64,000 bases of DNA from Parcubacteria group bacterium M10-OD1-1 (GTDB lineage Bacteria; Patescibacteriota; Minisyncoccia; Moranbacterales; UBA2206), in contig LSNL01000003.1 in NCBI GenBank assembly GCA_003056145.1, positions 201,993-265,992 on the forward strand, given 5' to 3'. Below the pieces are notes generated by a model. The model saw nothing but the letters and a program-made list of their open reading frames with translations, was not told the origin of the DNA and searched no databases. Positions 11,229 to 52,444 of the stretch are shown one piece after another. Position 1 is the first letter of the stretch. The number at the start of each line of letters is the position of its first letter. A program made the translations under genes and the position numbers.

Positions 11229-11302
11229 GCCTGAATAGCTCAGTTGGTTAGAGCAACTGTTTTGTAAACAGTAGGTCGTCGGTTCGAATCCGACTTCAGG
11301 CT
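11229..11302 (+). tRNA. tRNA-Thr (anticodon TGT)
   Basis: Hand-folded cloverleaf: acceptor gcctgaa/ttcaggc, D arm gctc..gagc, anticodon stem actgt/acagt with loop tttgtaa, T arm gtcgg-ttcgaat-ccgac. No encoded CCA. Confidence 0.8.
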
Positions 11303-11325
11303 CAGTAATGATGGAATTTAATTAG

Positions 11326-11408
11326 GGGTCGGTGGCAGAGTGGTTAAATGCACCTGACTGTAAATCAGGCGACGTAAGTCTACGGCGGTTCAAATCCGTC
11401 CCGGCCCA
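11326..11408 (+). tRNA. tRNA-Tyr (anticodon GTA) with long variable arm
   Basis: Acceptor gggtcgg/ccggccc (one G-U), anticodon stem cctga/tcagg with loop ctgtaaa, long variable arm, T loop ttcaaat. Confidence 0.75.
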
Positions 11409-11463
11409 CATCAAGATTGTAAAAAGCAGGCTATTATTATAGATAGAGAACGGAGGTTTCTAC

Positions 11464-11536
11464 GCCGAGATAGCTCAGCTGGTAGAGCACGTCCATGGTA
11501 AGGACGGGGTCCCGGGTTCAAGTCCCGGTCTCGGCT
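11464..11536 (+). tRNA. tRNA-Thr (anticodon GGT)
   Basis: Acceptor gccgaga/tctcggc, D arm gctc-agctggtag-agc, anticodon stem cgtcc/ggacg with loop atggtaa, T arm ccggg-ttcaagt-cccgg. Confidence 0.8.
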
Positions 11537-11616
11537 CAGGGATTATTGAGGAAAAATAGTTTAGTAGGTAATAAAATTAATCGAAATTAAAATTTAACAT
11601 ATTTAATATAATAATT

Positions 11617-19071: not shown

Positions 19072-21714
19072 ATGTCATTTCTTAATAAATTATTTGGTTC
19101 CAACGAGAGAGAGGTTGTTAAGTTACATCCGACAGTAGAAAAAATAAATTCTTTAAGTCCTGAAATAGAAAAACTTTCAGATCTTGAATTGCAAGGTAAA
19201 ACAGAGGAATTTAGAAAAAGAAGTAAAACGGGAGAAAGTCTAAATGATTTATTGCCAGAAGCTTTTGCTGTGGTTAGAGAAACCGCCAAGAGGGTGATTG
19301 GCGAACGGCATTACGATGTTCAGTTAATGGGAGGTATAGTTCTTCATCAAGGAAAAATTGCTGAGATGAAAACTGGAGAAGGAAAAACCTTAACCTCTAC
19401 TTTGCCAATTTATTTAAACGCTATTTCTCAAAAAGGTGTTCATGTAGTGACAGTTAATGACTATTTAGCAAAACGAGATTGTAACTGGATGGGTTCTATT
19501 CTTCATTTTTTAGGAATTTCCACTGCTTGCATAATTCACGATACTTCTTATATTTATGGTCCGAAAATTATTGATAACGATGAAGTTAGTGTAGAAATGG
19601 AAAATCTAAAACCAGTCAGCCGAAGAGAGGCTTATCAGGCTGATGTTACTTACGGGACTAACAACGAGTTCGGTTTTGATTATTTGAGAGATAATATGGT
19701 GCAAAGCTTAGAGGAAATGACTCAAAGAGAGCCTAACTTTGTAATTATTGATGAGGTAGATTCTATTTTAATTGATGAAGCTAGAACACCGTTAATTATT
19801 TCGGCTCCAGATAATGAATCAACTAAAATGTATCAACAGTTTGCTTCATTAGTTCCAAGATTAAAAAATGGAGAAGACTATGAAGTGGATGAAAAAATGA
19901 AGGCAGTGGCTATTTCTGAAAAGGGAATTTCTAAAATTGAAGCGTGGTTAGGAATAGATAATATTTATGAACAAGGACGGATGAAATATGTTCATCATTT
20001 GGAGCAAGCGTTAAAAGCAGAAGCAATTTTTAAAAAAGATCATGATTATGTGGTGAAGGAGGGAGAAGTAATGATTGTAGATGATTTTACAGGACGATTG
20101 ATGCCTGGTCGTCGTTATAGTGAAGGACTTCATCAAGCGATTGAAGCCAAAGAGGGAGTGATGGTGCAAAAAGAATCTAGAACCTTAGCTACTATTACTT
20201 TTCAGAATTACTTTAGAATGTATGAAAAGATTTCTGGTATGACTGGGACAGCTACTACTTCTGCTGAGGAATTTTTTAGAGTATATAAAATGGAAGTCAT
20301 TGAGATTCCAACTGGGAAAAAACTTATTCGAAAAGATTTGCCGGATATTGTTTATAAATCGGAAAAAGGAAAATTTGATGCGATTGTAAAAAAAATAAAA
20401 GAAGTCCACTTAATAGGACAACCAATTTTAGTAGGAACAATTGCTATTGAAAAATCAGAATATTTAAGTGCTCTATTAAAACGATTTGGCATAGAACATG
20501 AAGTTCTTAACGCCAAGCAACACGAAAAAGAAGCCACGATAATTACGGATGCTGGTAAGAAAAATGCGGTAACCATTGCTACTAATATGGCGGGACGAGG
20601 GACAGATATTAAATTAGGAGAAGGCGTTAAAGAAGTAGGCGGATTGTTCATCTTAGGGACAGAACGACACGAAGCTCGGCGTATTGATAATCAATTAAGA
20701 GGTCGTTCTGGAAGACAAGGTGATCCAGGAGTTTCTCAATTTTATGTTTCTCTAGAGGACGAGCTTATGCGAAGGTTTGGCGGAGATAAATTGATTAAGA
20801 TGATGGATACCTTAAAACTTCCTGAAGACCAGCCAATCCAAAATAGAATTATTTCTAAAACTATTGAAAATGCTCAATCAAAGATTGAAGGATTTAATTT
20901 TGATATCAGAAAGCATGTTTTGGACTATGATGATGTAATGAATAAACAAAGAGAAATTGTTTATAAAACACGAAAAGAAGTTTTAAAAGCTAAAGACACT
21001 AAAAATGAGATTTTAAAATATATCAACGATGAGGTGGATAGGATTATTTCTTTTCATTGTGCAGGAGAAGAAAATAATTGGAATCTTGAAGAAGTCCTTG
21101 AAAATATAAAAAGTATTGTAGCTGTTGATGCAGTAGTTATAAAAAAATTAGAAGCTATTAAAAATGATAAAGTAAAAACTTTAGCTGAAAAAAATGTTGC
21201 TATGGCTGAATATCTAGTAGGTATTATCAAAGAGGCTTATAACAAGAAAGAGCAAGAAGTAGGAATAGAAAATTTAAGAATGATTGAACGATCTATTATC
21301 TTACAGACAATAGATGCAACTTGGATGGATCATTTAGATGAAATTGATTATCTTCGTGAAGGAATTGGTTTGCGTGGCTATGGACAGAGAGACCCTTTGG
21401 TAGAATATAAAAGAGAGGCTTTTATTATGTTTTCTAGTCTTTTGGATAACATTCATTCTACTGTTGTACGGACTATCTTTAAAATTACTATTGCTCCTTC
21501 AGAACCAACAGACGAAACTATTACGGCTAATAATTTAAATTATAGCGGAGGAGAAGACACTCACCAATTTGAAAATACTCAGGCAGAATTAACGGCAGAA
21601 GGTTCAAAAATAGAAGCGCCGAAGCAAGAACCTATTATTAGTAGCAAAGTTGGGAGAAATGATCCTTGTCCTTGTGGTAGCGGGAAAAAATATAAAAAAT
21701 GTCACGGAAAGTAA
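19072..21714 (+). CDS. secA: preprotein translocase ATPase SecA
   Basis: DEAD-motor motifs 'MKTGEGKTLTSTLP', 'VIIDEVDSILIDEARTPLIIS', 'MAGRGTDIKLG', and C-terminal zinc finger 'CPCGSGKKYKKCHG'. Confidence 0.95.
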   Translation: MSFLNKLFGSNEREVVKLHPTVEKINSLSPEIEKLSDLELQGKTEEFRKRSKTGESLNDLLPEAFAVVRETAKRVIGERHYDVQLMGGIVLHQGKIAEMKTGEGKTLTSTLPIYLNAISQKGVHVVTVNDYLAKRDCNWMGSILHFLGISTACIIHDTSYIYGPKIIDNDEVSVEMENLKPVSRREAYQADVTYGTNNEFGFDYLRDNMVQSLEEMTQREPNFVIIDEVDSILIDEARTPLIISAPDNESTKMYQQFASLVPRLKNGEDYEVDEKMKAVAISEKGISKIEAWLGIDNIYEQGRMKYVHHLEQALKAEAIFKKDHDYVVKEGEVMIVDDFTGRLMPGRRYSEGLHQAIEAKEGVMVQKESRTLATITFQNYFRMYEKISGMTGTATTSAEEFFRVYKMEVIEIPTGKKLIRKDLPDIVYKSEKGKFDAIVKKIKEVHLIGQPILVGTIAIEKSEYLSALLKRFGIEHEVLNAKQHEKEATIITDAGKKNAVTIATNMAGRGTDIKLGEGVKEVGGLFILGTERHEARRIDNQLRGRSGRQGDPGVSQFYVSLEDELMRRFGGDKLIKMMDTLKLPEDQPIQNRIISKTIENAQSKIEGFNFDIRKHVLDYDDVMNKQREIVYKTRKEVLKAKDTKNEILKYINDEVDRIISFHCAGEENNWNLEEVLENIKSIVAVDAVVIKKLEAIKNDKVKTLAEKNVAMAEYLVGIIKEAYNKKEQEVGIENLRMIERSIILQTIDATWMDHLDEIDYLREGIGLRGYGQRDPLVEYKREAFIMFSSLLDNIHSTVVRTIFKITIAPSEPTDETITANNLNYSGGEDTHQFENTQAELTAEGSKIEAPKQEPIISSKVGRNDPCPCGSGKKYKKCHGK

Positions 21715-21833: not shown

Positions 21834-21977
21834 ATGGATTGGTTAATGAATAATTTTTTAAGATTTCTTTGGCGCAAGCTTCACAGTTTTGCTCGGCCCA
21901 CTAGTTTGGGTCAACGGGATTACTCCAAGGAAGTAACCTGGAGAAATTATAAGTTAAAAATTAAAAATAATAATCAA
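21834..21977 (+). CDS. 47-aa ORF that looks like a 3' remnant of one repeat unit of the downstream Cys-rich gene (possible pseudogene fragment)
   Basis: Manual translation MDWLMNNFLRFLWRKLHSFARPTSLGQRDYSKEVTWRNYKLKIKNNNQ. Its 3' half is encoded by direct repeat R1. N-terminal 'FLRFLWRKLHSF' resembles the 'FLAVLRYKFY' end of the downstream gene. Strong SD AAAGGAGG. Confidence 0.35.
21897..21937 (+). repeat. direct repeat R1 (41 nt), partner at 22509-22549 (3 mismatches)
   Basis: cccactagtttgGgtcaacgggattaCtccaaGgaagtaac versus cccactagtttgAgtcaacgggattaTtccaaAgaagtaac, read directly from the sequence. Confidence 0.9.
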
Positions 21978-21999
21978 TAAAACTAGGCTAAGAAGGAGA

Positions 22000-22521
22000 T
22001 TGAAAATGAAAAAAGTAGAGTGCAGGAGTATACTTGGAAATACCGTTGTGTTATATTGTTCGGATGAGGCATTGAAGCAGTTTATGATGCCAGATGGAGA
22101 ACCAGCTAAGCGTGGCGACTGCTGGAATAGTAACTGTGGTCCATTGACAATATATGGAACAATGGACAATCGTTTGTATGCAAAATGGGAAGATCCTGTA
22201 GAAGTTGTTGATTCTCTCAATGGAAGTGAGGAGCCATTTTCTGAGGCTGTTCGTAAATATAATCTAACTTTAGTTTCTAAAAATATTAAAGTGGATTGTT
22301 CAGATGAGGCATTGAAGCAGTTTATGATGCCAGATGGAGAACCAGCTAAGCGTGGCGACTGCTGGAATAGCAGCTGTGGTCCATTGACAATATATGGAGC
22401 AATGGACAATCGTTTATATGCAAAATGGGAAAAAGATGCAGAAATTCTGACTCCTCTTAATGGAAAGGATGAACCATTTTTTCTGGCGGTTCTTAGATAT
22501 AAATTTTACCCACTAGTTTGA
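22000..22521 (+). CDS. hypothetical protein made of two tandem ~80-aa Cys-containing repeats (no known family)
   Basis: Two copies of 'CSDEALKQFMMPDGEPAKRGDCWNS(N/S)CGPLTIYG(T/A)MDNRLYAKWE'. SD AAGGAGAT. GC content visibly above the flanking genes. Terminator downstream. Confidence 0.6.
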   Translation: MKMKKVECRSILGNTVVLYCSDEALKQFMMPDGEPAKRGDCWNSNCGPLTIYGTMDNRLYAKWEDPVEVVDSLNGSEEPFSEAVRKYNLTLVSKNIKVDCSDEALKQFMMPDGEPAKRGDCWNSSCGPLTIYGAMDNRLYAKWEKDAEILTPLNGKDEPFFLAVLRYKFYPLV

Positions 22522-22536
22522 GTCAACGGGATTATT
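22057..22536 (+). repeat. 2 x 240-nt tandem duplication inside the ORF; the first 134 nt of each unit are nearly identical, the remainder diverged
   Basis: Units at 22057-22296 and 22297-22536. Conserved cores 22057-22190 versus 22297-22430 differ only at the few positions named in the finding (tcGgat/tcAgat, TAA/CAG, ggaAca/ggaGca, tttGta/tttAta). Confidence 0.9.
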
Positions 22537-22549
22537 CCAAAGAAGTAAC
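22509..22549 (+). repeat. direct repeat R2 (partner of R1)
   Basis: See R1. Overlaps the stop codon of the tandem-repeat ORF. Confidence 0.9.
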
Positions 22550-22603
22550 TTAGAAAAGTTCTAGGTTTAAAAAATAGTAGAGATTTTTGATTTTTTAAAT
22601 CTT

Positions 22604-22642
22604 AAGCTACAAGGAAATTAAATTTCTTTGTAGCTTTTTTTG
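22604..22642 (+). terminator. intrinsic terminator after the duplicated Cys-rich locus
   Basis: ~14-bp stem aagctacaaggaaat/atttctttgtagctt (one G-U) followed by TTTTTTT. Confidence 0.65.
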
Positions 22643-22766: not shown

Positions 22767-24467
22767 ATGAATTTAAGGAAAAAACTTTTAATAAAATTTT
22801 ATTCAGTTATTTTATTAACCCTTATTGTGGGGGTGATTTCTTATCCTAAAATTATTTCTTTTGCCCCGCCAGCTTATAATCTTTTGAATAAAGTGAAAAT
22901 TCGTTTAGGATTGGATTTGCAAGGAGGTATTCACTTAGAATATAGAGCCGATCTTTCAAAAGTTAGCTTCAATCAAAAGAAAGAAGCTATGCAAGCGTTG
23001 CAGGATGTTATTGAAAGGCGAGTTAATGCTTTTGGCGTGGCTGAACCACTTATTTATACCACTAAATCAGGAGATAAAGAACATCTAGTTGTTGAATTAG
23101 CAGGAGTTAAAGATATAGATAAAGCGAAAGCAATGATTAAAGAAACTCCATTTTTGGAGTTTAAAAAAGAAAAAGCGGATCAAACAGTTCAAAAAATTCC
23201 ACCTAAAATTTTGGAAAAAATTAATGCTGAAAAAGAAAAAAGAGCTGAAAAAATTCTTCAAGAAGCTCTAGCGGGAAAAGATTTTAATCAGTTAGCTAAA
23301 GAAAATAGTCAAGATTCTGAATCTAAAAACAAGGGTGGTGACCTAGGTTTTATCAAAAAAGGCATGCTATTGCCAGCGGTAGAGAAAGTTGCTTTTGACC
23401 CTAATTTTAAAGATGGAACAATTTACCCTAAATTAGTAAAATCTATTTTTGGATGGCATATTATCAAGAAGATTGGTGAGCGGGGTCAAGGAAATTCACG
23501 AGAAGTTCATATTGCTCACATTTTAATTATGCTTGAAATGCAACCTCAGGCACAAACTCAATATGTGCCAACTGGTTTAACAGGGAAAGATTTAAAGAGT
23601 GCTAAGATGGAAATTCCACAACAAGGATTATCTGGTCCAGAGGTATCTTTAGAATTTAATAATCAAGGTACTAAATTATTTGCAGCGCTTACCAAAGATA
23701 ATATTGGTAAACGAGTAGCAATTTATTTAGACGGAAAGTTAGTTAGTGCACCTACTGTTCAAGCTGAAATTACTAATGGAAGGGCGGTTATTTCTGGAAA
23801 TTTTACAATAGCGGGAGCGAAAAAATTAGCTAACAGATTAAACGAAGGTGCTTTACCAGTTCCTATTCACTTAATATCACAACACAGCGTTGATGCTTCT
23901 CTAGGAGCAGAATCTTTTATTAAAAGTATTAAAGCTGGAGCAGTTGGTTTAGGTGTAGTAATAATTTTTATGATTTTCTATTATCGCTTTCTAGGTTTGA
24001 TAGCTTCAATAGCTCTTTTAATTTATACTGCCTTAATGGTTGCAATTTTTAAGCTATCCACCTTAACTCCTTGGTCAATTACTTTTACTCTCTCTGGGAT
24101 TGCGGGTTTTATTTTGTCTATTGGAATGGCTGTAGATGCTAATGTTTTGATATTTGAAAGAACTAAAGAGGAATTAAAGAAAGGGAGAAATGTCCTAGGT
24201 TCTATTGAGGAAGGTTTTAATAGAGCTTGGCCGAGTATTCGGGATGGTAACTATTCTACTATCATTACCTCAATTATTTTAATTGGAGTGGGTACGGGAT
24301 TTGTCAAAGGTTTTGCTATTATTTTAGTTATTGGAGTTTTAGTATCAATGTTTACCGCGATTATTATAGTAAAAACAATTTTAGAATTTACAGTTGGCGA
24401 TTGGTTAGAAAAAAGAGTTTGGCTGATTGCTAGGGTTGAAAATAAAACTAACGAAGAAAATAAATGA
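22767..24467 (+). CDS. secD: protein translocase subunit SecD carrying an inserted parvulin-type PPIase-like domain in the periplasmic head
   Basis: SecD signatures 'LGLDLQGGIHLEYRA' and 'AIYLDGKLVSAPTVQAEITNGRAVISGNFT', plus 6 C-terminal TMs. Residues ~160-250 'GKDFNQLAKENSQDSESKNKGGDLGFIKKGMLLPAVEKVAFD...FGWHIIKK' closely parallel E. coli PpiC. Confidence 0.85.
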   Translation: MNLRKKLLIKFYSVILLTLIVGVISYPKIISFAPPAYNLLNKVKIRLGLDLQGGIHLEYRADLSKVSFNQKKEAMQALQDVIERRVNAFGVAEPLIYTTKSGDKEHLVVELAGVKDIDKAKAMIKETPFLEFKKEKADQTVQKIPPKILEKINAEKEKRAEKILQEALAGKDFNQLAKENSQDSESKNKGGDLGFIKKGMLLPAVEKVAFDPNFKDGTIYPKLVKSIFGWHIIKKIGERGQGNSREVHIAHILIMLEMQPQAQTQYVPTGLTGKDLKSAKMEIPQQGLSGPEVSLEFNNQGTKLFAALTKDNIGKRVAIYLDGKLVSAPTVQAEITNGRAVISGNFTIAGAKKLANRLNEGALPVPIHLISQHSVDASLGAESFIKSIKAGAVGLGVVIIFMIFYYRFLGLIASIALLIYTALMVAIFKLSTLTPWSITFTLSGIAGFILSIGMAVDANVLIFERTKEELKKGRNVLGSIEEGFNRAWPSIRDGNYSTIITSIILIGVGTGFVKGFAIILVIGVLVSMFTAIIIVKTILEFTVGDWLEKRVWLIARVENKTNEENK

Positions 24468-25372
24468 TCTCAATTATTAATAAAAGAAAATATTTTTATG
24501 TGGCTTCTAGCACTTTAGTGATAGCTAGTTTAGTAGTTTTATCTGTTTGGGGACTTAAATTAGGTATTGATTTTACTGGTGGAACTCAAATGAAAATTAA
24601 ATTTGAAAAGTCTGCTCCAACTAGAACTCAAATTCAAAAAGCGGTTAAAAATTTAAAGTTAGATAGCTTTATTGTTAAACCAGTAGGAGGTCAAGAAATT
24701 ATCTTAAAATATAAAAATTCTAGCGACGCAGTTAATTTAAAAGTTTTTCAGGCGATTAAAAGCATTAAACCTCAAGCTAAACGATTGAGTGTTGATTTTA
24801 TTGGCTCTTCAGTTTCTGATCAATTAAAAACTAATGCTATCAAGGCGATTGTTTTATCGGTATTGGGTATTGCTTTATATATTGCTTGGGCGTTTAGAAA
24901 GATTTCTTATCCAGTTAAATCTTGGAAATATGGCTTAGGAGCAATTATTGCTTTAGCTCATGATATTATTATTACAGTGGGAGCTTTTGTTTTACTTGGT
25001 CATTTCTTTAATATTGAAGTAGGAGTTCCTTTTATTGCGGCTTTACTAACAATTTTAGGTTATAGCGTTAATGATACAATTGTTGTCTATGATCGAACTC
25101 GGGAAAATCTGATGAAATCAAACGGTAAGGAAGATTTTGAAAATATAGTCAATCGCTCGCTTAATGAAACTTTGGCTCGGTCTATTAATACTTCATTTAC
25201 GGTGATTGTAGTTTTAATTGCTATTATCTTTTTCGGTGGAGTAGCGATAAAATATTTTTCTCTAGCTCTTTTAATCGGAGTAGTCTTTGGGACTTATTCT
25301 TCAATCTATGTAGCCTCAGCTTTGATGGTAACTATTTATAAATTTCAAGAAGTACAAAATAATAATAAATAA
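24464..25372 (+). CDS. secF: protein translocase subunit SecF
   Basis: 'GIDFTGGTQMKIKF' SecF signature and 6 TMs. 4-nt overlap with secD. Confidence 0.9.
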   Translation: MISIINKRKYFYVASSTLVIASLVVLSVWGLKLGIDFTGGTQMKIKFEKSAPTRTQIQKAVKNLKLDSFIVKPVGGQEIILKYKNSSDAVNLKVFQAIKSIKPQAKRLSVDFIGSSVSDQLKTNAIKAIVLSVLGIALYIAWAFRKISYPVKSWKYGLGAIIALAHDIIITVGAFVLLGHFFNIEVGVPFIAALLTILGYSVNDTIVVYDRTRENLMKSNGKEDFENIVNRSLNETLARSINTSFTVIVVLIAIIFFGGVAIKYFSLALLIGVVFGTYSSIYVASALMVTIYKFQEVQNNNK

Positions 25373-25386
25373 TAAATAATAAAACT

Positions 25387-25626
25387 ATGTTTAATCCTTT
25401 TAGCAAAAATAAATCAGGAGCTAACGCTGGGAAAATGGGAATGTTACAAAAAATAGCCATGAAAAAATTGGCTAAAATGAGTCCGCAAGAACAGCAAAAG
25501 GTTATGCAAGAAGCTATGAAACCAAAAAATAGAGATAAAATGATAGCAGCAATGGAACAAATGAAAAAATCTGGTCAAATTACTGAAGAACAATATAAAA
25601 TAGCGAAACAAAAAATGGGAATGTAA
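25387..25626 (+). CDS. hypothetical small Met/Lys/Gln-rich protein
   Basis: 79 aa with 11 Met ('MGMLQKIAMKKLAKM...'), loosely reminiscent of the Met-rich Ffh M-domain tail. No TM. Confidence 0.4.
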   Translation: MFNPFSKNKSGANAGKMGMLQKIAMKKLAKMSPQEQQKVMQEAMKPKNRDKMIAAMEQMKKSGQITEEQYKIAKQKMGM

Positions 25627-31785: not shown

Positions 31786-31880
31786 GACCTTATTTACAAA
31801 AAGTTAATTTTATGGTAAGGTTTCAGGTGGTTTAAAAAGTGAAATTTTAAGAAATAAAGTAGTTCTTTTAATACTTATCA

Positions 31881-32204
31881 AGGTAAATTGAGTAGTCGCT
31901 CCAGTTTTTGGAGAGGAAAGTCCGGACATTCAGCCTAATCTTAATTGGCAAGGGTAGCGGGTAACTCCCGTCTAGAGTAATCTAAGAGGTGCGAGCAGAG
32001 ACGCTTCCTTCAGAAATGAAGAAGCACCCTTTTGGGGTGAGCTCTAATAGTAATATTAGAGGTGAAACGGCAAAATCCTTACCTGAATGCAAGGTCGTGT
32101 TCTATTTTTGAATAAAATATAGAAAGTGCCGCGCGAGGTTTTAAGTAATTAAAACCCAAGATAAATGACTACTCACGACAAAATCCGGCTTATAGATTTA
32201 CCTT
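31881..32204 (+). ncRNA. rnpB: RNase P RNA (bacterial type, compact)
   Basis: CR-I 'GAGGAAAGTCCGGAC', CR-II-like 'AGAGGTGAAACGGC', CR-V 'GACAAAATCCGGCTTAT' (P4 halves). Terminal P1 pairing aggtaaattgagtagtc / gactactc...atttacct. Confidence 0.8.
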
Positions 32205-32260
32205 GATAAATATCAAAAGAATTAAAAACTAAATTAAGTAAAATTAGAAATAAGATTATT

Positions 32261-49413: not shown

Positions 49414-50143
49414 GTATATATAGAAAAATTAAAAATTTTAAAATGAAGTAATTCTTTATGTATGTATTATATATGTCAATATGCTCGTTGTTGTATTTTC
49501 CAATTGAGCTTTGTGAATTTTTTCTAACTGAAAAGTTGCAAATTACTAAATCAATAAAAAGTGCGTTAATCTTTTTGCTAGTGAGCCTAATCCAAAGCTC
49601 ATAATCCATTGAATTTTTATATTTTTGATTAAACAAACCATATTTTTCGAATACAGATTTTTTTAAGAAAACGGTTTGATGAGGGATATAGTTGGTTAGG
49701 AGTAACAGCCAAAAATAAGTTTTTTGATAGATTTTGCGATGGGGTATTATCCGAAAGTTTTTTGTGTTGATATTTATGAATTTGGCTTTGCCATAAATCC
49801 AATCGGGATTATTTTTTTTTGTGATAAAATTAGATACATTCTCCAGCACGTTATTATCAAAGAAACTATCATCTGAATGAAGATGGATAATATATTTTCC
49901 TAAAGACTTATTAATACCTTTGTTCATTGCATTACCAATGCCTTTAGCTGGAAACTGAAAAAACTTTACTTTATCTGGAAATTCTTGGCGATATTTTTTA
50001 ATCATTTTAACTGTGCCGTCAGTTGAAAATCCGTCAATAAAGACATGCTCAAAATCACGAAAAGTCTGATTCTTGACCGAGTTGATATTTTGTTGTAAGT
50101 ATTCTTCGCTGTTATATGTGCAGGTGATGATAGAAAATTTCAT
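49385..50143 (-). CDS. GT2 glycosyltransferase
   Basis: 'MKFSIITCTYNSEEYLQQNINSVKNQTFRDFEHVFIDGFSTDGT' GT-A N-terminus and DxD-like 'HLHSDD'. Confidence 0.8.
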   Translation of the reverse strand: MKFSIITCTYNSEEYLQQNINSVKNQTFRDFEHVFIDGFSTDGTVKMIKKYRQEFPDKVKFFQFPAKGIGNAMNKGINKSLGKYIIHLHSDDSFFDNNVLENVSNFITKKNNPDWIYGKAKFININTKNFRIIPHRKIYQKTYFWLLLLTNYIPHQTVFLKKSVFEKYGLFNQKYKNSMDYELWIRLTSKKINALFIDLVICNFSVRKNSQSSIGKYNNEHIDIYNTYIKNYFILKFLIFLYILNQKRSLFH

Positions 50144-51300
50144 AAAAATATAATACTTATCTTGTTAATCATATTTGGAATGTCTGTTTTTTTGAGAATT
50201 TCTTTGGAATTATTTCTAATATAAAGTTTATTTTCAAAAACTTTTCCAATGGCTAAAGTAATTTCTTTTGGGTTATTTGGTTTTATTATGTATCCATTTT
50301 TTCCTTCTTCAACTAAATCAGCACCAGCGCCTGCAACTATAGTGGTTATGACTGGCAAACCGCAGGCTAGAGCTTCATTGATAACTAAACCCCAAACTTC
50401 TTCGCGTGAGGGCGTTATTAATAAATCTGAAATTGAATAGTATTTATAAAGTTCATCGTACTGAATAAAATCAGTAAAAAAAACATTTTGGATATTCTGT
50501 TCTTTAATTATTTCTTTAATTCTTTCTTTTTCTTGCCCTTTGCCAAGAATAAGTAGGGAGATATCAGCGTTTGTTTTTTGATAACCCTGAAATCCTTCCA
50601 AGAGCTCAAAAATTCCTTTTCTCTCAATAATTTGTCCGCTAAATAAGATTATCTTAGAAGTTTTAATTTTTAGTTTCTGTTTGAGGAGTCTCTTTTTTTC
50701 TTCGGAAAAATTTTCCGATTTATTTTTGAAATAATCAATGTTAACTGCATTGTAGAATATTTGAATTTTTTTTGGATTAGCACCGAGAGAAATTAAATAT
50801 TCTTTAGCTCGAGTTCCATAGGCAATAAAATTATTTGAATTTCGAATAATGTATTTAACTAAAGGATTGAAAACTGTTCTACGCCAACTTTTTTCGAATT
50901 TTGTGCTACCAGACCAAAGAGTAAAAACTTTTTTATTTTTTTTACACCAGTAAGCGGCTATATAAGCAGCCCAATTATCCCAGCCGAAAGAAATAATGCG
51001 ATCAGGATTTTCTTGTTGGATTTTTTTATAAATGCCAGGGTTGATAAAAAAAGTATTAAGATCTTTTCCAGCGATTCTAATAGAAAAATTATCTAATATT
51101 TCATAGCTAAAATTCATTTTATAATTAATTTTCCAGTTACGATTTTTATCACTGACACTTAAAAAAATAACTTTAAATTTAATCTCTTTTTTCTTGTAGT
51201 ATTTATCTAATTCGTTAAATAGAAAGATTCTAATTGGGCTTATAATATTATGTAAAACTATTATTTTTTTCATATAGCTATAGTTTATAGATATTTTCAA
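50140..51300 (-). CDS. GT4 glycosyltransferase
   Basis: 'PSREEVWGLVINEALACGLPVITT...EEGKNGYII' GT4 signature. Confidence 0.8.
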   Translation of the reverse strand: MKISINYSYMKKIIVLHNIISPIRIFLFNELDKYYKKKEIKFKVIFLSVSDKNRNWKINYKMNFSYEILDNFSIRIAGKDLNTFFINPGIYKKIQQENPDRIISFGWDNWAAYIAAYWCKKNKKVFTLWSGSTKFEKSWRRTVFNPLVKYIIRNSNNFIAYGTRAKEYLISLGANPKKIQIFYNAVNIDYFKNKSENFSEEKKRLLKQKLKIKTSKIILFSGQIIERKGIFELLEGFQGYQKTNADISLLILGKGQEKERIKEIIKEQNIQNVFFTDFIQYDELYKYYSISDLLITPSREEVWGLVINEALACGLPVITTIVAGAGADLVEEGKNGYIIKPNNPKEITLAIGKVFENKLYIRNNSKEILKKTDIPNMINKISIIFL

Positions 51301-52444
51301 CTTTTTTGAGTGTAATTTTTAAATCAAAATAATTTCTAACTACATTATTCGCATTTCTTGAAAATTTTTGATGCAAAACCGGATCGTTTAATAGCGATAA
51401 TATTTTTTCTGTTATTTTATTTTCTTCGGTTAGATTAAATTCAAAACCGCCGCCATATTTTTCAATTTCTGGCACATGGCATTCTCGAGAAATAATTTGG
51501 GGCACTCCTAAAGCAGCAATTTCCAAAACAGTCATTGGAAGACCTTCATTTCTGGAAGTAAAAAGAAAAAGGTCGCAAGATTTTATTGTCTCGAGCTTTT
51601 CTTTTCCTTCTAATATTCCAGTAAAAAGAACATTTTTTTTCAATTTCAGTTTTTCAATTTTATCTTCTAGTTTTGTTTTTTCGCCTTCATCCGGACCGAT
51701 GATTAAATATGTAAGACTTATTTCATTTTTTAATTTAGCAAGAATCTCAAGTGCTATATCTATTCCTTTGATATATTGAATCCGGCCAATATAGCCAATA
51801 ATTTTATTCTCTTTTGGGAGGTTATATTTTTCATGTAAATCAATTTTTCCTATATTTTTAAATTCTTCTAGTTTTATTCCATTAGGAATAATTGCTATTT
51901 TGTTTTCTAATTTATTGTCAATGGAAATTATTTCAGTTTTTTCGTTTTCAGTGAGAGCTATAATATTTTTTGAATTTTGCAAAACATCTAGGAATAATTT
52001 TAAAAATATTTTTTTAATTGTTTTAAATCTTGCTTTTTGGCGGACGGGAGAGAGGGTACCATGGGGTTGCACAATAAATGGAACTTTATATTTTTTGCAA
52101 AAGTGTGAGACAACGATATTTTGCAGAGTGAAAAAATCATGACAATGGATCGCATCAAAATTTTTAATATTGTTTTTTGCCCAACTATAAAAACCAATCG
52201 GCAAATACCCATTATAATTTTTTGCCAGCCAATTGCTGACATTCTTAAAACGGATTACCTTTATGCCATTTATTTCTTCTTTCAGCGTTGCTATTCTATT
52301 CTTACTGTCTAGCGTATCAGTGGTCGTTACTGTTATGTCGTGTCCACGTTTGGTTAATTCCTGAGAAATGTCTAAGCAAACCTTGATTGGTCCACCATAG
52401 CTGTAGGCTGGGACGAAATAGGGTATGACTTGGAGAATTTTCAT
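51278..52444 (-). CDS. GT4 glycosyltransferase
   Basis: 'MKILQVIPYFVPAYSYGGP' N-terminus and 'SRNEGLPMTVLEIAALGVPQIIS' C-terminal motif. Confidence 0.8.
   Translation of the reverse strand: MKILQVIPYFVPAYSYGGPIKVCLDISQELTKRGHDITVTTTDTLDSKNRIATLKEEINGIKVIRFKNVSNWLAKNYNGYLPIGFYSWAKNNIKNFDAIHCHDFFTLQNIVVSHFCKKYKVPFIVQPHGTLSPVRQKARFKTIKKIFLKLFLDVLQNSKNIIALTENEKTEIISIDNKLENKIAIIPNGIKLEEFKNIGKIDLHEKYNLPKENKIIGYIGRIQYIKGIDIALEILAKLKNEISLTYLIIGPDEGEKTKLEDKIEKLKLKKNVLFTGILEGKEKLETIKSCDLFLFTSRNEGLPMTVLEIAALGVPQIISRECHVPEIEKYGGGFEFNLTEENKITEKILSLLNDPVLHQKFSRNANNVVRNYFDLKITLKKVENIYKL

What the first reader, a model, noticed from the sequence alone, without database searches (positions are those of the whole stretch)
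22767..24467. SecD with an embedded parvulin (PpiC-type PPIase)-like domain in its periplasmic head
Between the SecD N-terminal TM / 'LGLDLQGGIHLEYRA' block and the conserved 'YLDGKLVSAPTVQAEITNGRAVISG' P1-base region, residues ~160-250 read 'GKDFNQLAKENSQDSESKNKGGDLGFIKKGMLLPAVEKVAFD...GTIYPKLVKSIFGWHIIKK', followed by 'REVHIAHILI'. This parallels E. coli PpiC 'GADFGKLAKKHS..SGKRGGDLGEF..GQMVPAFDKVVF...TQFGYHIIKV' almost motif for motif. The His-bearing first strand 'HILV' appears after rather than before the domain, which may indicate a circular permutation. A foldase built into the SecDF protein-pulling module would functionally merge SecDF with a PpiD/PrsA-like chaperone. I am not aware of this being a standard SecD architecture.
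Basis: partly seen in the sequence, partly recalled or inferred. Interest (0 to 1): 0.58.

Follow-up and report, generated by a model that had tools for sequence, protein, structure and literature searches.

The report
SecD with built-in permuted parvulin foldase
The protein-export subunit SecD of this small-genome (Patescibacteria/CPR) bacterium carries a complete prolyl-isomerase (parvulin) domain, with its first strand moved to the end, spliced into the outward-facing head that grips exported proteins; this suggests export and folding help are joined in one protein.

Summary
ORF 22767-24467 (+, 566 aa) is a true SecD: TIGR01129 scores 365 bits against a cutoff of 244, and secF overlaps its stop codon.

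- **Domain:** Pfam Rotamase hits (E about 3e-18) lie between SecD_1st and SecDF_P1_head.
- **Permutation:** The parvulin lacks its N-terminal strand. A conserved trailing strand (246-255, with H251-I-L invariant) most likely replaces it.
  - Moving that strand to the front restores full profile coverage, whereas shuffled or reversed versions do not.
  - AlphaFold models the insert alone as one compact domain (pLDDT 90.9, pTM 0.82).
  - Solved parvulins superpose at 1.4-1.9 A, but only over the helix1-to-strand4 part.
- **Active site:** The residues at catalytic positions (S181, D183, H231, H251) are invariant.
- **Distribution:** The architecture is typical of its lineage. All 120 closest homologues have it, as do 66 of the 150 best SecD cluster representatives. 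Named examples are Moranbacteria, Falkowbacteria and Parcubacteria. Tandem and larger variants also exist.
- **Literature:** I found no paper describing a SecD-parvulin fusion or a permuted parvulin.

Function is inferred: a PrsA/PpiD-like foldase tethered to the SecD head. I rate it a new variant of a known kind, of moderate interest.

The parts
22767..24467 (+). secD gene, 566 aa, including the stop codon
   Evidence: ORF list. NCBIfam TIGR01129 secD scores 365.1 bits against a cutoff of 244.4. T. thermophilus SecDF 3aqp matches at E 2e-70. Foldseek places SecDF structures 5yhf, 5xan and 3aqp at the top.
22773..22841 (+). N-terminal transmembrane helix (residues 3-25)
   Evidence: Helix 3-25 in the AF2 model; hydrophobic sequence.
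22992..23171 (+). SecD_1st / P1 N-terminal part (residues 76-135), ending in the PFLEFK strand
   Evidence: Pfam PF21760, E 2.9e-15; strand 130-135 in the model.
23172..23201 (+). Variable linker 1 (residues 136-145) leading into the insert
   Evidence: Mean majority frequency 0.52, against 0.78-0.87 for the neighbouring domains.
23202..23486 (+). Parvulin core, helix 1 to strand 4 (residues 146-240). Carries S181, D183, the GGDLG loop, and GWH231II.
   Evidence: Pfam Rotamase and Rotamase_3. AF2 pLDDT 87-98. Foldseek rmsd 1.4-1.9 A to 6xd8, 2m08, 2rqs and 4g2p over 75-76 columns. S181, D183 and H231 are invariant or nearly so.
23502..23531 (+). Trailing strand EVHIAHILIM (residues 246-255), the displaced parvulin strand 1 carrying H251
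   Evidence: E246, H251, I252 and L253 are invariant in 80 sequences and in 13 diverse ones. It is a DSSP strand with pLDDT about 95-97 in the insert-only model. Placing it at the N-terminus restores Rotamase profile coverage to 1-95/97 and moves the start on an independent parvulin HMM from 16 to 3, whereas shuffled or reversed controls do not.
23532..23567 (+). Variable linker 2 (residues 256-267) back into the P1 head
   Evidence: Mean majority frequency 0.56; lower pLDDT.
23571..23861 (+). SecDF P1 head core (residues 269-365)
   Evidence: Pfam PF22599, E 7.9e-30, profile positions 19-114 of 114. Aligns to TtSecDF from residue 157 onward.
23868..24389 (+). SecD_SecF_C membrane domain (residues 368-541), with D457 at nt 24135-24137
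   Evidence: Pfam PF02355. D457 aligns with TtSecDF D340 (alignment). D457 is invariant.
24464..25372 (+). secF, whose start overlaps the secD stop codon (ATGA)
   Evidence: ORF list. Pfam SecD_SecF_C at E 1.4e-58. Overlap seen in the sequence. secF follows secD in the related loci examined.
19072..21714 (+). secA, upstream neighbour
   Evidence: 880-aa ORF whose translation reads as SecA on direct inspection. Its C-terminal part is 65% identical to the region upstream of secD in Moraniibacteriota locus L002 and also matches regions in five other loci.

Best explanation
This is a true SecD, the proton-driven partner of SecF in the Sec translocon. Its extracytoplasmic P1 domain has acquired a circularly permuted parvulin-type peptidyl-prolyl isomerase domain of about 110 residues. 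The domain is tethered by two short variable linkers at the N-terminal edge of the P1 head.

The parvulin runs helix1-helix2-helix3-strand2-helix4-strand3-strand4. It is then completed by a trailing strand (246-255) that folds back as a hairpin onto strand 4 and takes the place of the canonical N-terminal strand 1. This brings H251 next to H231 and recreates the parvulin dual-histidine site.

Proposed mechanism (inferred): polypeptides leaving SecYEG are captured by the SecD P1 head. The attached parvulin binds them there and catalyses prolyl isomerisation, or at least holds them. It would do in cis what PrsA, PpiD or the Mycoplasma PrsA-like dome proteins do in trans.

The architecture is ancestral to, or at least widespread in, Patescibacteria. 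Variants carry one, two or more parvulin-like units.

What is shown: domain identity, position, conservation, lineage distribution, and the predicted compact fold. What is inferred: the strand-1 slot assignment, catalytic activity, and action on translocating substrates.
For: - **SecD identity:**. D457 equals TtSecDF D340, and secF is translationally coupled.
- **Parvulin identity:** Pfam E about 3e-18 and PDB parvulin hits.
- **Permutation, profile coverage:** In natural order the Rotamase profile is matched only from position 7-15 (PF00639) or 32-33 (PF13616). Moving residues 241-262 to the front gives 1-95/97 and about +6 bits.
- **Permutation, independent control:** Against an HMM built from 72 free-standing parvulins, 128 family members shift the HMM start from 16 to 3 with a mean gain of +2.2 bits. 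Shuffled or reversed strands give -0.3 bits and no shift.
- **Models:** The AF2 full model shows the order H146-168, H173-180, H184-187, E192-197, H203-209, E229-239, E246-255, and the insert is its best-predicted part. The insert alone gives pLDDT 90.9 and pTM 0.82.
- **Geometry:** Foldseek superposes single-domain parvulins at 1.4-1.9 A over only 75-76 of their 93-108 residues. So strands 2 and 4 sit at canonical positions. Strand 2 is assigned as strand by DSSP, and the only strand left to fill the slot between them is 246-255.
- **Conservation:** S181, D183, H231 and H251-I-L are invariant. The core (0.78) and trailing strand (0.80) are as conserved as the P1 head (0.82), whereas the linkers score 0.52 and 0.56.
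- **Distribution:** All 120 nearest homologues carry the insert, as do 66 of 150 representatives at 50% identity. Named members are Moranbacteria, Parcubacteria, Falkowbacteria and Patescibacteria.
- **Functional precedent:** PPIase-domain proteins associate physically with SecDF or SecYEG in Mycoplasma and in E. coli (PpiD/YfgM).
Against: - No coordinates were available, so the occupancy of the strand-1 slot is a logical inference from DSSP plus superposition statistics. It was not a measured contact.
- The bit-score gain on re-permutation is modest (2-6 bits).
- The query has V205 and L201 where the family and canonical parvulins mostly have Phe and Phe/Met in the proline pocket. Many parvulin domains with good folds are catalytically dead (SurA P1, PpiD; established knowledge).
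- AF2 inter-domain confidence is low (pTM 0.51), so the position of the parvulin relative to the substrate path is unknown.
- I could not test whether the genome lacks a separate PrsA/PpiD. I only showed that there is no other parvulin in this 64-kb window.
Confidence: 0.6

Rival explanations
1. The insert is a folded parvulin that has lost isomerase activity and serves only as a substrate-binding or holdase module, or as a docking surface, like SurA parvulin-1 or the PpiD parvulin domain.
For: The query replaces two pocket residues that the family consensus keeps aromatic: L201 for Phe, and V205 for Phe, which is the consensus in 65% of sequences. Unit A of the tandem relatives has clearly degenerated, with the strand-4 His replaced by Glu in 84 of 119, yet it is retained. 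So non-catalytic parvulin units are tolerated and kept in this position. From established knowledge, SurA P1 and PpiD parvulin domains are inactive but functional.
Against: S181, D183, H231 and H251 are invariant across sequences only 36-70% identical. This pattern is typical of active parvulins. A Pin1 C113D-type Asp supports activity, as cited in the preprint read. In tandem forms, one unit always keeps both histidines (119 of 119), which suggests selection for catalysis.
Confidence: 0.25
2. The trailing 'EVHIAHILI' strand is merely a relic of a lost second parvulin domain, or part of the linker or P1 head. On this reading it does not complete the fold: the parvulin is incomplete, or is completed by some other SecD strand.
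For: The insert is collinear with E. coli SurA parvulin-1 (helix 1 to strand 4) followed by strand 1 of parvulin-2. In tandem SecD relatives the same kind of strand is the ordinary N-terminal strand of the second unit, with Pfam coverage 1-97/97.
Against: H251-I-L and E246 are invariant, although no second domain follows. The strand is as conserved as the core, whereas the flanking linkers are not. AF2 folds residues 134-270 alone into a single confident domain that includes this strand (pTM 0.82, strand pLDDT about 95-97), with no P1-head sequence present. No strand-1-like sequence lies upstream of helix 1. A parvulin sheet without its central strand is not expected to be stable (established fold knowledge).
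Confidence: 0.08
3. The parvulin acts in cis on SecD/SecF itself. For example it might isomerise a proline that gates P1-head movement, or assist assembly of the complex, rather than act on exported substrates.
For: It is covalently placed at the junction between the P1 base-side strand and the moving head. There is no direct evidence.
Against: There is no precedent in characterised SecDF systems. The variable number of units (1-3) and the long variable linkers fit a substrate-facing accessory module better than a precise intramolecular switch.
Confidence: 0.05
4. Assembly chimera or chance similarity.
For: None beyond the metagenomic origin of the relatives.
Against: The same architecture appears in hundreds of independent assemblies from NCBI, JGI, ENA and Logan and in 8 species-representative genomes. 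The reading frame is intact and the E-values are 1e-18.
Confidence: 0.01

Closest known systems
SecDF of Thermus thermophilus / Deinococcus radiodurans (PDB 3aqp, 5yhf, 5xan)
   Same: Same family and overall fold: TM1, P1 base and head, then five TMs. The proton-pathway Asp is conserved (D457 = Tt D340). SecF is a partner.
   Different: Here SecD and SecF are separate genes. About 110 residues (146-255 plus linkers) replace a short loop of about 14-30 residues at the N-terminal edge of the P1 head (query 157-267 against Tt 143-156). None of the solved SecD/SecDF structures found aligns over the parvulin region.
PrsA (Bacillus/Listeria/Staphylococcus lipoprotein foldase)
   Same: An extracytoplasmic parvulin at the outer face of the membrane of a (probably) single-membrane cell. 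It is the closest solved parvulin by fold (6xd8, rmsd 1.4 A, 43% identity). It has the same Ser-x-Asp and dual-His signature.
   Different: PrsA has its own lipid anchor and an N/C chaperone (dimerisation) domain, with the parvulin in canonical strand order. Here there is no chaperone domain, the anchor is SecD itself, and strand 1 is permuted to the C-terminal end.
PpiD-YfgM at the E. coli SecYEG translocon; SurA
   Same: Parvulin-containing chaperones that contact the Sec machinery and receive emerging chains (abstracts listed). The insert is collinear with SurA P1(helix 1..strand 4)+P2(strand 1).
   Different: Those are separate proteins with large chaperone domains, and the PpiD and SurA-P1 parvulins are catalytically inactive (established knowledge). 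Here the link is a covalent fusion, with residues at the catalytic positions conserved.
Mycoplasma pneumoniae Mpn444/Mdp 'dome' complex on SecDF-SecYEG
   Same: A genome-reduced bacterium couples PrsA-like PPIase domains physically to SecDF at the translocon exit. Substrate density contacts the active PPIC domain (bioRxiv 10.1101/2025.04.25.650208; 10.1101/2024.09.05.611430).
   Different: That is a non-covalent assembly of separate, large lipoproteins. Here a single minimal parvulin is spliced into SecD.
Tandem- and multi-parvulin SecD of other Patescibacteria (for example P0129, 694 aa; P0160, 776 aa; P0147, 1075 aa SecDF)
   Same: Same insertion site and the same trailing strand followed by the T-x-LTGK motif of the P1 head.
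   Different: They contain an extra canonical parvulin (Pfam 1-97/97) and a degenerate first unit. The window's protein has one unit with both histidines intact.

Membership tests
SecD (TIGR01129 / PF21760+PF22599+PF02355) | Whole-protein match above the curated cutoff | tested here: met
   TIGR01129 scores 365.1 bits against a cutoff of 244.4 over residues 47-539. Pfam SecD_1st, SecDF_P1_head and SecD_SecF_C are all above their gathering scores.
SecD (TIGR01129 / PF21760+PF22599+PF02355) | Topology: TM1, large extracytoplasmic P1 (base and head), then five C-terminal TMs | tested here: met
   AF2 secondary structure. Foldseek top hits are SecDF structures 5yhf, 5xan and 3aqp.
SecD (TIGR01129 / PF21760+PF22599+PF02355) | Conserved membrane Asp of the proton pathway (TtSecDF D340) | tested here: met
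   D457 aligns with Tt D340 (alignment) and is invariant in 80 homologues.
SecD (TIGR01129 / PF21760+PF22599+PF02355) | Partner SecF encoded alongside | tested here: met
   secF lies at 24464-25372, overlapping the secD stop. The same order is seen in relatives.
Parvulin PPIase domain (PF00639 / PF13616) | Profile match above the gathering score | tested here: met
   PF00639 scores 66.8 bits (cutoff 21.7) and PF13616 scores 67.0 bits (cutoff 22.5).
Parvulin PPIase domain (PF00639 / PF13616) | Canonical order of elements: strand1-helix1-3-strand2-helix4-strand3-strand4 | tested here: not met
   No strand 1 precedes helix 1. In natural order the profile is matched only from position 7-15 (PF00639) or 32-33 (PF13616). 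The strand-1 equivalent follows strand 4. So the fold is kept but the connectivity is permuted.
Parvulin PPIase domain (PF00639 / PF13616) | Parvulin three-dimensional fold | tested here: met
   The insert-only AF2 model has pLDDT 90.9 and pTM 0.82. It superposes on 6xd8, 2m08, 2rqs and 4g2p at 1.4-1.9 A, with TM-score normalised to the target of 0.60-0.72. This is a predicted structure, not an experimental one.
Parvulin PPIase domain (PF00639 / PF13616) | Dual-histidine motif plus Ser-x-Cys/Asp active-site residues | tested here: met
   H251 (strand 1'), H231 (strand 4), S181 and D183 are invariant or nearly so. Equivalence to Pin1 H59, H157, S111 and C113 rests on alignment to PpiC, SurA and PrsA and on the residue mapping quoted.
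Parvulin PPIase domain (PF00639 / PF13616) | Peptidyl-prolyl cis/trans isomerase activity | not testable with these tools
   Needs an enzyme assay.
PrsA / SurA / PpiD-type foldases | N/C-terminal chaperone (SurA_N / PrsA NC) domain flanking the parvulin | tested here: not met
   No such Pfam family was found in the protein at E up to 1. The flanks are SecD_1st and the P1 head. Weak NCBIfam PrsA hits (about 50 bits against cutoffs of 343-361) are carried by the parvulin region with its short flanks.
PrsA / SurA / PpiD-type foldases | Physical association with the Sec translocon exit | tested here: met
   Met trivially, by covalent fusion into SecD P1.

The most novel reading that the evidence does not exclude
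A naturally circularly permuted, catalytically active parvulin is built into the moving P1 head of SecD. It would be the principal (perhaps only) extracytoplasmic prolyl isomerase of these Patescibacteria. Proton-driven head movements would then deliver the emerging chain directly to a foldase site, giving a one-polypeptide translocation-folding machine. The tandem relatives would be a 'parvulin nested inside a permuted parvulin', preserving intermediates of a duplication-based permutation pathway.
Probability: 0.3. Interest if true: 0.72.

Novelty: new variant of a known kind. Interest (0 to 1): 0.55.

Why it matters
- **Rosetta-stone evidence:** It indicates that SecDF and parvulin foldases work on the same substrate at the same place. 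That idea currently rests on crosslinks, co-purification and in-cell tomography in E. coli and Mycoplasma.
- **Experimental handle:** It offers a compact, covalent, 1:1 model for structural work on hand-over from the translocon to a foldase.
- **Fold evolution:** I found no description of a natural circular permutant of the parvulin fold. Single, tandem and multi-unit relatives could document how such a permutation arises.
- **Annotation:** Thousands of CPR proteins labelled simply 'SecD' carry an unmentioned PPIase domain. This matters when judging which envelope-biogenesis functions these minimal genomes retain.

Tried and rejected
- **Chance or artefact:** Rejected on E-values and on hundreds of independent homologues.
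- **Hidden upstream strand 1:** I looked for one before helix 1. The only strand there is the universal SecD 'PFLEFK' strand, and the Rotamase profile does not reach its first positions in natural order.
- **Other parvulins in the window:** phmmer of the insert against all 242 six-frame ORFs of at least 50 aa found only SecD itself. This says nothing about the rest of the genome.
- **Taxon names for tandem and large representatives:** The cluster look-up returned none. Names came instead from a homologue search with P0129.
- **Literature:** Searches for SecD+parvulin, SecDF+rotamase, SecD+PpiC, parvulin with 'circular permutation' or 'circularly permuted', and CPR+peptidyl-prolyl+SecDF found no description of this fusion. 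The library covers only open-access papers and bioRxiv.
- **Rfam on the secA-secD spacer:** Nothing credible was found.
Full report
**Observation.** All quoted peptide strings are present at the stated positions. The protein is an unambiguous SecD.
- NCBIfam TIGR01129 scores 365 bits against a cutoff of 244.
- Pfam finds SecD_1st (76-135), SecDF_P1_head (269-365) and SecD_SecF_C (368-541).
- The best PDB sequence matches are T. thermophilus and D. radiodurans SecDF, at E 2e-70 and 1e-62.
- A full-length AlphaFold2 model (mean pLDDT 80.5) has SecDF crystal structures as its top Foldseek hits.
- The membrane Asp of the proton pathway is present: D457 aligns with Tt D340 and is invariant.
- secF follows, with its ATG overlapping the secD stop codon as ATGA. 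secA lies upstream.

**The insert.** Pfam Rotamase (PF00639, E 3.6e-18) and Rotamase_3 (PF13616, E 2.9e-18) match residues 145/152-235, between SecD_1st and the P1 head. Solved parvulins (SurA, PrsA, PpiC, NmPin, Par14) match at E 1e-11 to 1e-4. Relative to TtSecDF, query 42-156 aligns to Tt 30-142 and query 268-553 aligns to Tt 157-437. About 110 extra residues therefore sit at the N-terminal edge of the P1 head.

**Circular permutation.**
- *Profile coverage in natural order.* The Rotamase profiles are matched only from position 7-15 (PF00639) or 32-33 (PF13616). The first strand, which carries the first catalytic histidine, is missing before helix 1.
- *Re-permutation test.* When residues 241-262 (…REVHIAHILI…) are placed in front of the core, coverage becomes 1-95/97 (PF00639) and 14-112/116 (PF13616). 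Scores rise by about 6 bits.
- *Independent control.* I built an HMM from 72 free-standing parvulins from many phyla, taken from the loci, and scored 128 single-insert family members. With the true strand moved to the front, the median HMM start moves from 16 to 3 and the mean gain is +2.2 bits. With shuffled or reversed strands the start stays at 15-16 and the change is -0.3 bits.
- *Models.* Both AlphaFold models give the element order helix 146-168, helix 173-180, helix 184-187, strand 192-197, helix 203-209, short strand about 224, strand 229-239, strand 246-255. This is the parvulin pattern with strand 1 moved to the end and joined to strand 4 by a hairpin.
- *Autonomy.* Modelled alone, residues 134-270 form one confident compact domain (pLDDT 90.9, pTM 0.82) with the trailing strand at pLDDT about 95-97. 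No P1-head sequence is needed for this.
- *Geometry.* Foldseek superposes single-domain parvulins (6xd8, 2m08, 2rqs, 4g2p) at 1.4-1.9 A, but only over 75-76 of their 93-108 residues. That is what a sequence-order-dependent aligner must give if strand 1 is out of order.
- *Slot assignment (inference).* Strands 2 and 4 sit at canonical positions and strand 2 is assigned as strand by DSSP. The slot between them must therefore be filled, and 246-255 is the only strand left. I could not inspect coordinates, so this is an inference and not a measured contact.

**Conservation.** In 80 homologues at 61-71% identity, and in 13 single-insert sequences at 36-60% identity, the following are invariant or nearly so: S181, D183, G190-G191, F210, G229, (W230), H231, E246 and H251-I252-L253.
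- By alignment to PpiC, SurA and PrsA, H251 and H231 are the dual histidines (Pin1 H59 and H157).
- S181-x-D183 corresponds to Pin1 S111-x-C113. The Asp variant is the one found in PrsA and is reported to be compatible with activity (paper read).
- Region by region, the parvulin core (majority frequency 0.78) and the trailing strand (0.80) are as constrained as the P1 head (0.82) and the membrane domain (0.84). The two linkers score 0.52 and 0.56.
- The query itself has L201 and V205 where the family mostly has Phe in the hydrophobic pocket. This is a mild caveat for activity.

**Distribution and variants.** This is not a singleton.
- All 120 closest clusters at 90% identity have the same Pfam architecture. 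The named ones are Candidatus Moranbacteria or Parcubacteria, and all are annotated only as 'SecD'.
- Among the 150 best SecD representatives at 50% identity, 66 contain a parvulin-like insert.
- In species-representative genomes, the parvulin hits embedded in SecD were L001-L007 and L026. All are Patescibacteria, Moraniibacteriota or Parcubacteria, except one contig binned as a Bathyarchaeia archaeon, which is probably mis-binned. The other 72 loci were free-standing parvulins from many phyla.
- Size classes are about 570 aa (single unit, as here), about 680-700 aa (two units), about 780-810 aa (further degenerate units) and 900-1100 aa (SecD-SecF fusions with insert).
- The two-unit family comes from Falkowbacteria, Parcubacteria and Patescibacteria.

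**What the tandem forms say.** Their order is core A, then a 'xSHILI' strand, then core B, then a second trailing strand, then the P1 head. Pfam reads the middle strand plus core B as a full canonical parvulin, 1-97/97. In 119 sequences:
- the middle-strand His is invariant (119/119);
- the core-B strand-4 His is invariant (119/119);
- the core-A strand-4 His is never present (Glu in 84);
- the trailing-strand His survives in only 51, although its Glu and hydrophobic residues are conserved.

The histidines therefore co-vary as (middle strand + B) and (A + trailing strand). This suggests that core A is also completed by a trailing strand, with a canonical parvulin nested in the hairpin. A serial arrangement of two permuted units is not excluded.

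The single insert is collinear with E. coli SurA parvulin-1 (helix 1 to strand 4) running into strand 1 of parvulin-2: [29 protein letters not shown] against GWHIIKKIGERGQGNSREVHIAHILI. So it looks like a register-shifted slice of a tandem array. That is the textbook duplication-and-truncation route to circular permutants (established concept). The direction of evolution, single to tandem or tandem to single, is unresolved.

**Mechanism (inferred).** In characterised SecDF, the P1 head binds the emerging preprotein and swings between conformations powered by proton flow. This is established from the TtSecDF and DrSecDF work behind 3aqp, 5xan and 5yhf. Here a parvulin hangs on two variable linkers at the junction of the base-side strand and the head. 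It should therefore meet the chain as it leaves SecYEG, binding it and probably isomerising its prolyl bonds.

The closest functional analogues are separate proteins:
- PrsA in Firmicutes;
- PpiD-YfgM at the E. coli translocon;
- the PrsA-like Mpn444/Mdp dome that sits on SecDF-SecYEG in Mycoplasma pneumoniae, where substrate density contacts the active PPIC domain.

The insert lacks the chaperone (NC/SurA_N) domain of those proteins. It works like their parvulin module but is not a member of the PrsA/SurA/PpiD families.

My estimates: domain presence about 0.99, permuted fold about 0.85, action on translocating substrates about 0.7, catalytic activity about 0.6.

**Novelty.** The Pfam domains are already precomputed on these proteins in public resources, so the co-occurrence is discoverable. 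However, I found no paper describing a SecD-parvulin fusion or any circularly permuted parvulin (open-access and bioRxiv only). I class it as a new variant of a known kind: known parts, an undescribed combination and connectivity, and confinement to one lineage.

**Limits.**
- No coordinates, no enzyme data and no whole-genome census for other PPIases. Only this 64-kb window was checked, and it has none.
- Taxon labels come from MAG records and include a few evident mis-binnings.

Noticed in passing
window 21897-22640 (secA-secD spacer): A 171-aa ORF (22006-22521, with AAGGAG just upstream of its ATG) consists of two copies of a Cys-containing unit of about 80 aa. At the DNA level this is a 208-nt direct repeat, 87% identical (22055-22262 and 22295-22502). 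The ORF is flanked by a 64-nt direct repeat (21897-21960 and 22509-22572) and followed by a strong terminator-like hairpin (22604-22636, 15-bp stem plus a T-run). It has no Pfam or Rfam match and no homologue in the eight related secD loci, so it looks like a strain-specific insertion between secA and secD.
   Followed up: partly
L005 (DATGZC010000075.1, labelled Candidatus Bathyarchaeia archaeon); P0360 (Bacteroidales), P0365 (Actinobacteria): Patescibacteria-type SecD-parvulin genes (63-66% identical to the window's SecD outside the insert) sit in MAGs labelled as an archaeon, Bacteroidales or Actinobacteria. These are most likely mis-binned CPR contigs.
   Followed up: no
L039, L050, L053, L059, L079 (Alphaproteobacteria: Hyphomicrobiaceae, Devosiaceae, Rhabdaerophilaceae): Free-standing parvulin genes lie within about 3 kb of secA on the opposite strand. 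This is an independent gene-neighbourhood link between parvulins and the Sec system.
   Followed up: no
Proteins P0160, P0170, P0212 (776-812 aa) and P0145, P0147, P0172 (1015-1075 aa): These larger SecD or SecD-SecF fusion proteins have 120-190 extra residues before the canonical parvulin. The extra residues look like one or two further, highly degenerate parvulin-like units, and no Pfam chaperone domain was detected.
   Followed up: partly
window 31880-32208 (+); 11229-11537 (+): Bacterial class A RNase P RNA (136 bits) and a tRNA-Thr/Tyr/Thr cluster.
   Followed up: no
window 1-64000: GC is about 24-35% (about 30% overall). GC skew is positive in all but one 2-kb bin (50001-52000, -0.03) and weakens from about 50 kb onward. 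This fits a single replichore of a small AT-rich genome. The ORFs of 19-29 kb all lie on the + strand.
   Followed up: no
window 25387-25626 (+): A 79-aa Lys/Met/Gln-rich ORF lies between secF and pheS. It has no significant Pfam match.
   Followed up: no
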